Source of the DNA: Eledone cirrhosa
Taxonomy: Eukaryota
DNA length: 64,000 bases
Reading direction: 5' to 3'
Assembly: GCA_964016885.1 (NCBI GenBank)
Contig: OZ024743.1
Span: 50,344,001 to 50,408,000 of the forward strand
This document shows, piece by piece, positions 37,745 through 38,898 of this stretch. Every line of letters begins with the position of its first letter. Positions within the stretch are counted from its first letter, which is position 1. The position numbers and the translations under genes were made by a program. A model generated the notes under the pieces. The model made no database searches. It saw nothing but the letters and a program-made list of their open reading frames with translations, and had not been told where the DNA came from.

Positions 37745-38898
37745 TGAGATTTATTACATAATCACACACAAGAAGAAACTGCTGAATAACAGAATTGAAC
37801 GAACATTATTCTGCCGTCACAGAACTAAAACCCTTTTTTCCCACTACAAGCCGAATATTACATAAAAGAGGGACATCCCCCAACTATATAAACCTTAATC
37901 TAGTTAGAAAAATATAAAAACAATCTCTTCTCAACATATATTAATAACCTTAAATTACCACACTAATAATGGAAAGATATGCTGATGAGAATAGGTACAA
38001 ATATGCGATAATGAATGTGTCTAAAAACGCCCATAAGTATGTATATATATGTGAAAATGTATATAAATAAGTAAATATATATATATGTTTGATGTGTATA
38101 GTTAGATGTAAGTGTATTCATGCATTAAAGTGCTTATATATATATATATATATATATATATGTGTATATATATGTGTATGTATATATGTGTATATGGATG
38201 TGTATGTATGTGTATGTGTGTACACATGGACTAGAGTATGTATGTATATATGTGTGTGTCTATACGTGTGTATATAAAGATAAGTTGAGTATGAAAATGT
38301 ATACACATGAGCGCGTATGTATGTACATGAATACATGTGTGTATATATATGTGTATGCATGTGTATATATATGTAAGTATGAATATGTGAATTGTGAGTA
38401 TATGTATTTTGTAGAGGTGTGCAAATATATTTGTTTGTGAATGCGTGGGTGAAAGGATACGTACACTTGAAAGAAAAATTTAAGTCTGAATGTTAATTAA
38501 GTGCAAACACAAAACCAACCACGCATATCTTTACTATCTCTAATCCTTCTATAGATTTAGAAAAATAACCAATAATATATTCTATAAAAAATGTCAAAAC
38601 AACAGATGGGAATCTAATTACTCACTGCCACCAAGAATTCTCACTGCTATCGAAAAACCACTCCTTCAACTATTCTTCTAACAACTTCACCCCTCCCTCC
38701 TAATATTCTCTATAAAAACTAAATAGGTCCTCAGTAATATTATTCTGATGAAATGACAGTAAATAATAACATTGACATATTGAATGTCTGCATAACTAAA
38801 AGTTTGTAGATAGCAGCTGTTTTAGGTTATGTAACTGTTATAGAAACACGTGTCAATAAATTCCTTTCAACTAAACTGTATCCATTCAAATCTTTCTA
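37745..38898 (+). mobile_element. 5'-truncated PLE: endonuclease C-terminus, long 3' region and hammerhead, flanked by (TA)n
   Basis: [34 protein letters not shown] (stop at 37865) aligns with ELYHIITAPHELINSRAETAMRCTHRLKISFFRW of the 45.1 kb element. Confidence 0.78.
38740..38859 (+). ncRNA. Type I hammerhead ribozyme with an intact core and a 91-nt branched domain II
   Basis: TTATT-CTGATGA-A-ATGACAGT...ACTGTTAT-A-GAAAC-ACGT-GTC-AATAA. Predicted cleavage after C38854. Confidence 0.78.

What the first reader, a model, noticed from the sequence alone, without database searches (positions are those of the whole stretch)
38740..38859. Intact hammerhead core with a 91-nt branched domain II and an A.A closing mismatch
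Seen: stem I TTATT/AATAA, core CTGATGA, then A, an 8-bp helix ATGACAGT/ACTGTTAT enclosing two sub-hairpins (GACAT/ATGTC and CATAAC-TAAAA/TTTTAG-GTTATG), then A, GAAAC, palindromic stem III ACACGTGT and a GTC cleavage triplet. It lies 40 nt from the 3' end of a truncated PLE. Known: PLE pseudo-LTRs carry minimal type I hammerheads with a short helix II and palindromic helix III that are thought to cleave as dimers. Inference: this is a structural class with a large appended domain that could regulate cleavage or bind the RT.
Basis: partly seen in the sequence, partly recalled or inferred. Interest (0 to 1): 0.85.

Follow-up and report, generated by a model that had tools for sequence, protein, structure and literature searches.

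The report
Long-armed hammerhead ribozyme in Penelope retroelements
Thousands of copies of a jumping gene in this animal genome carry a hammerhead self-cutting-RNA motif whose normally short second arm is stretched into a predicted long unbranched hairpin with two conserved kinks, a shape shared by many related jumping-gene families here and likely a docking site for the element's own copying enzyme.

Summary
The motif is real. It lies in the pseudo-LTR of a young Penelope-like element with Hydra-clade protein motifs; 2,255 copies match the core pattern. The catalytic boxes, stem I and palindromic stem III are as described.

Two details are wrong. Domain II is predicted to be an unbranched ~35-bp rod, not a branched domain. 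An unpaired closing pair is already known in this clade.

The long arm is a class feature of this genome: about 8,000 further matches with spacers of 35-127 nt, against 59 control matches. Stems covary between families. Two A-N/G internal loops recur about one helical turn apart. A model built without this family still finds it (47 bits). G5 is intact in 5,215 matches and changed in 68.

No RNA data were available. Genomic 5' ends are not enriched at the cut site, and a sister family has a weak stem I. Verdict: a new structural variant of the Penelope hammerhead. Cleavage and protein binding are untested.

The parts
37741..38895 (+). 5'-truncated copy of a PLE with Hydra-clade motifs (end of ORF, microsatellite-rich 3' UTR, pseudo-LTR), inserted in (TA)n
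   Evidence: blastn to the long copy in L031, 93% over 1168 nt; same limits in other copies
37741..37865 (+). last codons of the endonuclease end of the ORF
   Evidence: tblastn, 100% to the last 33 residues of the L031 ORF; stop at 37865
38740..38744 (+). stem I, 5' strand (pairs with 38855-38859)
   Evidence: stem I covaries across families
38745..38751 (+). catalytic box C3-A9 (CUGAUGA)
   Evidence: G5 intact in 5,215 matches, changed in 68
38752..38842 (+). 91-nt domain II: A.A closing pair, 8-bp base helix (38753-60/38834-41), 5x3 loop, then a predicted unbranched irregular rod to an apical loop near 38798-38800
   Evidence: folds; covariation in sister families; model hit
38770..38826 (+). 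conserved 2x1 internal loop 1: C38770[A38771 U38772]U38773 opposite A38824[G38825]G38826
   Evidence: aligned to the conserved loop of model R1; column counts
38782..38814 (+). conserved 2x1 internal loop 2: G38782[A38783 A38784]U38785 opposite A38812[G38813]C38814
38843..38854 (+). GAAA box, stem III (2 bp plus ACGT loop; 8-nt palindrome ACACGTGT) and GUC triplet; predicted cut 38854/38855
   Evidence: palindrome self-duplex -10.3 kcal/mol, formed in a cofold of two copies
38855..38895 (+). stem I 3' strand overlapping an AAUAAA hexamer (38855-60), then about 40 nt to the first of two preferred 3' ends of the family

Best explanation
This is a Penelope-type (type I, palindromic stem III) hammerhead motif in the pseudo-LTR of a high-copy retroelement; its stem II is lengthened into a predicted unbranched rod with two conserved A-N/G internal loops, and it likely cuts slowly and mainly as a dimer while the rod likely serves as a protein-docking site, most plausibly for the element's own RT-endonuclease. 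Shown: sequence, copy number, position about 210 nt before the ORF and again after it, core conservation, covariation of stems, recurrence of the two loops. Inferred steps: (1) a transcript from the upstream pseudo-LTR carries two hammerheads 3,483 nt apart; (2) they pair through the 8-nt palindrome, because a monomer has only a 2-bp stem III and a 5-bp A-U stem I; (3) cleavage trims a minority of the RNA to unit length and leaves AAUAAA at the new 5' end; (4) most new genomic copies are made from uncut RNA, with reverse transcription starting about 40 or about 155 nt past the cut site; (5) the loops, about one helical turn apart and thus on one face, bind a protein that may also bring the two ribozymes together.
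For: Element anatomy: hammerheads at L031:4315 and 7798 with the ORF between them. Core under selection in amplified lineages: G5 intact in 5,215 matches and changed in 68, scattered over families with mixed substitutions, while position 7 differs between families (U, A, C, G). Features not in my search patterns, over 51 clusters: stem I has 2.94 Watson-Crick pairs of 5 against 1.72+/-0.13 when flanks are swapped between clusters; the base of helix II has 4.00 of 6 against 2.49+/-0.19; stem III is palindromic in 29 of 51 against 25% expected. Alignment A3 (24 copies, this family excluded): 21 of 32 pairs have two-sided changes, 99 such cells against 43+/-5.4 shuffled and at most 44 when slid. 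Loop letters are kept in 20-24 of 24 rows while the middle columns of the helix between them keep their commonest letter in 11-16 of 24. Model R1 finds the window copy at 47.4 bits (sequence-only model 26.2) with both loops in register. The plus strand folds more stably than the minus strand in 7 of 8 family representatives. Precedent: PLE minimal hammerheads cut weakly and as multimers (PMC4209133); in the PAc element uncut RNA is the main template and RT starts at two internal sites (PMC11167929).
Against: No RNA evidence of cleavage, expression or binding. 5' junctions of genomic copies are not enriched at the cut site (50 matches against 64 in a control window). The large sister family (RT core 77% identical) has only 1 contiguous stem I pair in 6 of its 7 distinct sequences and 2 in the seventh. 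The loop motif was defined post hoc: 9.96 of 51 clusters against 3.06+/-1.6 shuffled (maximum 9 of 200), but another letter assignment scored higher (11.99), and only 9 of 24 later sequences passed the strict test. RNAalifold found no consensus structure for the 60-nt group. A3 rows were chosen by me and are related by descent, which inflates covariation. The 3'-end distance of 40-60 nt also holds for a compact-hammerhead family (n=2), so it does not argue for a ruler role of the long arm. Families with compact hammerheads also amplify in this genome, so the long arm is not needed by all.
Confidence: 0.55

Rival explanations
1. The long arm is purely an RNA folding device: it stabilises helix II, or supplies tertiary contacts to stem I or to the partner ribozyme in the dimer, and no protein binds it.
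For: Stem I is weak (pairing probability about 0.04 in the monomer), so extra stabilisation would help. The loop letters are conserved as tertiary contacts would be.
Against: The loops lie 11-28 nt from the core on the 3' strand and their distance varies between families. That is too far and too variable for the usual loop I-loop II contact (established knowledge).
Confidence: 0.2
2. The ribozyme does not cut in vivo. The whole fold, core included, is kept as a structural element for translation of the downstream ORF, RNA export or packaging.
For: No excess of 5' ends at the cut site. Weak stem I in the sister family. PAc catalytic mutants insert normally in vitro and no reads ended at its cut site (PMC11167929). 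Type I hammerheads in 5' UTRs promote cap-independent translation in RNA viruses, though there cleavage was required (PMC13725137).
Against: G5, the NUH triplet, stem I and the palindrome are all kept across families, which is what catalysis and dimerisation would demand.
Confidence: 0.15
3. Domain II holds a 67-nt spliceosomal intron (38759 GT ... AG 38825) whose removal would leave an ordinary compact helix II.
For: The sequence shows a GTAAAT donor-like and a TTTTAG/TTTTCAG acceptor-like site, and the helix would survive removal. PLEs are known to keep 5' UTR introns (PMC8557442, PMC4209133).
Against: 6 of 17 family sequences, and all 6 of cluster 5, lack a GTRA donor. Older subfamilies read GTTGA there, which extends the helix. 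The two short-spacer genomic copies are imprecise deletions and none lacks the segment exactly, though PLEs are known to retain introns. Covariation runs through the whole segment.
Confidence: 0.06
4. The arm is a neutral by-product of fold-back duplication during reverse transcription, tolerated because loop II accepts insertions.
For: Lengths range widely, from 40 to about 127 nt. The median fold z-score over 51 cluster representatives is only -0.9. These elements make inverted copies often.
Against: Compensatory changes and fixed loop letters persist between families whose linked RT pieces are about 44-77% identical.
Confidence: 0.04

Closest known systems
Minimal type I hammerheads of metazoan PLE pseudo-LTRs (Cervera and De la Pena 2014, PMC4209133)
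   Same: Position in the pseudo-LTR, CUGANGA/GAAA core, short stem I, extra nucleotide after A9, small palindromic stem III, thousands of solitary copies.
   Different: The published descriptor allowed stem II of 3-7 bp and loop 2 of 3-10 nt (supplement passage), so at most about 26 nt. Here domain II is 91 nt (40-127 in relatives), lacks the usual G10.1-C11.1 pair and carries recurrent internal loops.
Hydra-clade PLE hammerheads (Craig et al. 2021, PMC8557442, File S2)
   Same: The host element has the clade's protein motifs and (TA)n targeting; U.U or other mismatches close helix II in many listed families.
   Different: All Hydra rows listed have stem II of 3-7 bp and loop 2 of 3-10 nt. The longest in the table is PLE-X1_sMoe (9 bp plus a loop of about 35 nt), marked as deviating. 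Naiad 'half cores' 35-50 nt apart were noted but not modelled.
PAc (Poseidon, Anolis) hammerhead and internal RT initiation (Frangieh et al. 2024, PMC11167929)
   Same: Two preferred 3' ends downstream of the ribozyme; copies apparently made from uncut RNA.
   Different: In PAc the ORF begins at stem II and the tail is 30-40 nt. Here the ORF starts about 210 nt after the cut site and the two ends are about 115 nt apart.
Type I hammerheads in 5' UTRs of chryso- and fusariviruses (PMC13725137)
   Same: Type I ribozyme upstream of an ORF, without the usual loop-loop contact.
   Different: Their 'long' helix II is 6-8 bp and their helix III is long enough to act as a monomer.

Membership tests
Hammerhead ribozyme, type I | Core C3 U4 G5 A6 N7 G8 A9 / G12 A13 A14, A15.1-U16.1 and NUH site | tested here: met
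   G5 kept in 5,215 of 5,283 pattern matches
Hammerhead ribozyme, type I | Three helices around the core, open ends in stem I | tested here: met
   5-bp stem I, 8-bp helix II base, 2-bp stem III; covariation in relatives. The active fold is 4.6 kcal/mol above the monomer minimum.
Hammerhead ribozyme, type I | Watson-Crick pair at 10.1-11.1 (usually G-C) | tested here: not met
   A.A here; variable across 51 clusters; mismatches also occur in published Hydra-clade motifs
Hammerhead ribozyme, type I | Match to an Rfam hammerhead model | tested here: not met
   no hit at E<=1 at this place, whereas the compact motifs at 39162-39232 and 41368-41438 hit RF02275 below gathering
Hammerhead ribozyme, type I | Site-specific self-cleavage | not testable with these tools
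   no RNA run was listed
PLE pseudo-LTR hammerhead | Located in both flanking repeats of an RT-EN ORF | tested here: met
   L031: 4315 and 7798, repeat 3903-4469/7383-7952
PLE pseudo-LTR hammerhead | Short palindromic stem III permitting a dimer | tested here: met
   ACACGTGT duplex -10.3 kcal/mol; palindromic in 29 of 51 clusters
PLE pseudo-LTR hammerhead | Compact helix II (3-8 bp, loop up to 10 nt) | tested here: not met
   91 nt
Hydra clade of PLEs (host element) | RWK and DKT motifs, CxCX5C linker, C-terminal endonuclease with CxxC and CxH, (TA)n targets | tested here: met
   all visible in the L031 and L036 translations, as defined in PMC8557442 section 11. The unit is 3.5 kb, against under 3 kb for most members.
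Hydra clade of PLEs (host element) | Phylogenetic placement with named Hydra elements | not tested
   the tree held only local pieces and unnamed database homologues; Pfam gave no family at E<=0.01
Spliceosomal intron in a PLE 5' UTR | Conserved GT donor and AG acceptor, spliced RNA | tested here: inconclusive
   donor not conserved across families; no exact intron-less copy; no RNA to test

The most novel reading that the evidence does not exclude
A previously undescribed class of two-domain retroelement ribozyme: a hammerhead fused to a long rod whose paired A-N/G loops are the binding site of the telomerase-related PLE reverse transcriptase. An RT dimer would bring two distant ribozymes together and decide between cutting and copying. 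Because published descriptors cap domain II at about 26 nt, this class would have been missed in many animal genomes, including PLEs now scored as lacking a hammerhead.
Probability: 0.25. Interest if true: 0.85.

Novelty: new variant of a known kind. Interest (0 to 1): 0.58.

Why it matters
What PLE hammerheads do is an open question, and how PLE reverse transcriptases, the closest relatives of telomerase, recognise their RNA is unknown. A separable 90-nt domain with two conserved loops, in young families of thousands of copies and with compact-armed relatives in the same genome as controls, makes both questions testable. It also shows a blind spot: the published descriptor cannot see this form, and the Rfam search missed it here.

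Tried and rejected
Branched two-hairpin fold: rejected on energy, pairing probability and family sequence.

Intron in loop II: my own first idea, now weak.

RNA evidence: no RNA holder was listed. Four contig runs of unrecorded kind showed no joint in the ribozyme region; contigs show presence, not absence, so this counts neither way.

Cut site as a hot spot of 5' ends: not seen (50 against 64 matches; both lists include small internal indels).

Long arm as a ruler for the 3' end: not supported, since a compact-hammerhead family ends at similar distances.

Relatives outside this genome: the search for related loci in metagenomes found none. A pattern scan gave 116 loci. The best of the 80 searched scored 27 bits with R1 and none was convincing; 2 of 116 passed a simple stem filter and looked like chance. 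Distribution beyond this genome is therefore unknown.

RNAalifold on the 60-nt group gave no structure. No same-strand RT-EN hit was found near the 60-nt group or the variable 66-127-nt group, so their link to PLE ORFs is not shown. The RT tree did not resolve whether long or short arms came first.

Three look-ups of earlier scan findings were empty. Lunse et al. (PMC5785218) is not held, and Arkhipova et al. 2017 did not appear in the searches. Both may describe longer helix II variants.

Full report
Observation. All listed motifs are at the stated places. The predicted cut is 38854/38855. The window lies in a 3.0-Gb genome, G000. A two-motif pattern finds 2,255 copies and 0 controls. The 30 loci returned are near-identical. 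Rfam has no hammerhead hit here at E<=1.

Host element. The window holds a 5'-truncated copy, 37741 to about 38895. L031 holds a long copy: ribozyme at 4315, ATG at 4635, ORF end at 6941, second ribozyme at 7798, and an inverted truncated copy upstream. The protein shows RWK, DKT, CxCX5C, a C-terminal endonuclease with CxxC and CxH, and copies end in (TA)n. These are the Hydra-clade marks in PMC8557442 section 11. Pfam gave nothing at E<=0.01. A database search gave 113 homologues at 31-44% identity. Of 55 family copies, 30 end 39-52 nt after the cut site, 22 end at 151-159, and 3 elsewhere (ends read from the onset of TA repeats). This fits two internal RT start sites as shown for PAc (PMC11167929, passages); that is an inference.

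A class, not a single case. Patterns with both boxes and an RYRY stem III gave 974 matches at spacers of 66-96 nt with the main family largely excluded (control 8), 1,950 at 35-65 (control 12), 119 at 97-127 (control 7) and 4,985 with other letters at position 7 (control 32). I fetched a sample from the first contigs, partly hand-picked for diversity. Its 125 distinct sequences fell into 51 clusters, 16 with two or more members; some singletons are probably chance. Features outside the patterns behave as in a ribozyme: stem I 2.94 pairs of 5 against 1.72 when swapped between clusters, helix II base 4.00 of 6 against 2.49, stem III palindromic in 29 of 51, and AATAAA just after the site in 18 of 51 against 5 before it. 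G5 is intact in 5,215 matches and changed in 68, scattered over families; six near-identical rows on C20 look unrelated. Same-strand RT-EN hits lie beside clusters 0, 1, 3, 4, 5, 12 and a large sister family. RT core identity to this family is 77% for the sister and 44-55% for pieces at cluster 1 and 5 loci. No such hit was found for the 60-nt or the 66-127-nt groups.

Structure of domain II. Most single-sequence folds are long imperfect rods. I aligned 24 copies from related clusters, leaving out this family, cluster 5, the sister family and two indel-rich rows (A3). For a rod with two internal loops, 80.6% of cells pair, 21 of 32 pairs show two-sided changes, and 99 cells do so against 43+/-5.4 shuffled and 20-44 when slid. 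Relatedness inflates such counts. The loops have the form 5'-N[A N]U / A[G]N'-3'. Their letters are kept in 20-24 of 24 rows, while the middle columns of the helix between them vary; the closing pairs vary as U-A, C-G and G-C. A covariance model from A3 finds the window copy at 47.4 bits, with both loops on 38770-73/38824-26 and 38782-85/38812-14. It also finds cluster 5 (40 and 33 bits) and the sister family (30-34 bits); the sequence-only model gives 26.2, 18.6 and 20-21. The plus strand is the more stable in 7 of 8 representatives. Against this: the motif was defined after seeing the data; in a crude count it scored 9.96 of 51 clusters against 3.06 shuffled, but one other letter choice scored 11.99; 9 of 24 later sequences passed; and RNAalifold found no consensus for the 60-nt group, which by eye has one such loop.

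A.A closing pair. Over 51 clusters this position is U.U 14, A-U 9, A.A 7, G-C 7, G.U 5 and other 9. Older subfamilies of this family have A-U. U.U is common in published Hydra-clade motifs. It is a minor variant.

Does it cut? Unknown. The monomer has a 2-bp stem III and a weak stem I. Two copies pair through the palindrome in a cofold. Published PLE minimal hammerheads cut weakly and only as multimers or with an extended helix III (PMC4209133). Genomic 5' junctions near the cut site number 50, against 64 in a control window, so cut RNA is not a main template. The sister family has 1 contiguous stem I pair in 6 of 7 distinct sequences. No RNA run was available.

Mechanism. Best reading (0.55): a slow, dimer-dependent ribozyme whose long arm is a protein-docking site, most plausibly for the element's RT-EN. 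The docking step is inference from conserved loops on one face of a freely varying helix, far from the core. Rivals: RNA-only stabiliser or tertiary contact (0.2), non-cutting structural element (0.15), intron (0.06), neutral fold-back (0.04).

Prior art. The 2014 descriptor limits stem II to 3-7 bp and loop 2 to 3-10 nt. The 2021 table lists only compact Hydra motifs, one deviating spike-moss motif with a loop of about 35 nt, and unmodelled Naiad half cores 35-50 nt apart. Nine full-text searches showed no description of a 40-127-nt rod or of these loops in the listings and passages I saw; the library lacks most subscription papers.

What I read: PMC4209133, parts 1-2 of 4 and supplement passages (file 1 could not be searched); PMC8557442, passages, sections 6 and 11, supplement parts 1-2 of 59; PMC11167929, PMC6765202 and PMC13725137, passages (the last also its abstract); bioRxiv 10.64898/2026.07.22.740005, part 1 of 5. 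Lunse et al. was not available. It, Arkhipova et al. 2017 and the unseen supplements may bear on novelty. Hammerhead position numbering and the loop I-loop II rule are recalled knowledge.

Verdict: a real feature, a new structural variant of the PLE hammerhead, so far shown in one genome; function untested. Interest 0.58.

Noticed in passing
window 39192-39216 (-) and 41384-41408 (+): Compact type I hammerheads (4-bp helix II, G-C closing) of a second PLE family in inverted arrangement, with an endonuclease fragment at 40842-41285 (-); weak RF02275 hits.
   Followed up: partly
window about 42170-42210 and 45560-45600 (+): A third PLE family (RT frame 42638-44380) has a hammerhead-like motif with U at position 3 and A at position 8 of the core, resembling the U3-A8 variant of PMC4209133; the second copy differs at G5. 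Read by eye.
   Followed up: no
L181, L183, L195-L199: Large sister family with a 90-nt domain II and a weak stem I; the 7 nt after its cut site are complementary to the 3' strand of domain II, a possible off-state.
   Followed up: partly
L108, L116, L141, L148, L149, L151, L155: Family group whose domain II varies from 66 to 127 nt through an AT-rich distal part, while stem I (AAACT/AGTTT) is kept in most members.
   Followed up: no
L031:4508-4518 and 4599-4607; L183, L046, L117 downstream flanks: A GTYGAGCA-like motif recurs about 80-180 nt after the cut site in several otherwise dissimilar families, near the second 3' end; possible promoter or RT-start signal.
   Followed up: no
window 38855-38860 and relatives: AATAAA follows the cut site in 18 of 51 clusters, so cleavage would separate the upstream RNA from a possible polyadenylation signal.
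   Followed up: partly
G000:C8:17161983-17164738 and G000:C20:26368729-26368917: Short tandem arrays (about 42-52-nt units) whose unit carries CTGATGA and GAAAC-RYRY-GT, possibly retrozyme-like or minimal hammerhead satellites.
   Followed up: no
window 1-24000 and 55000-64000: Very uniform composition (about 16% and 31% GC), suggesting long satellite arrays.
   Followed up: no
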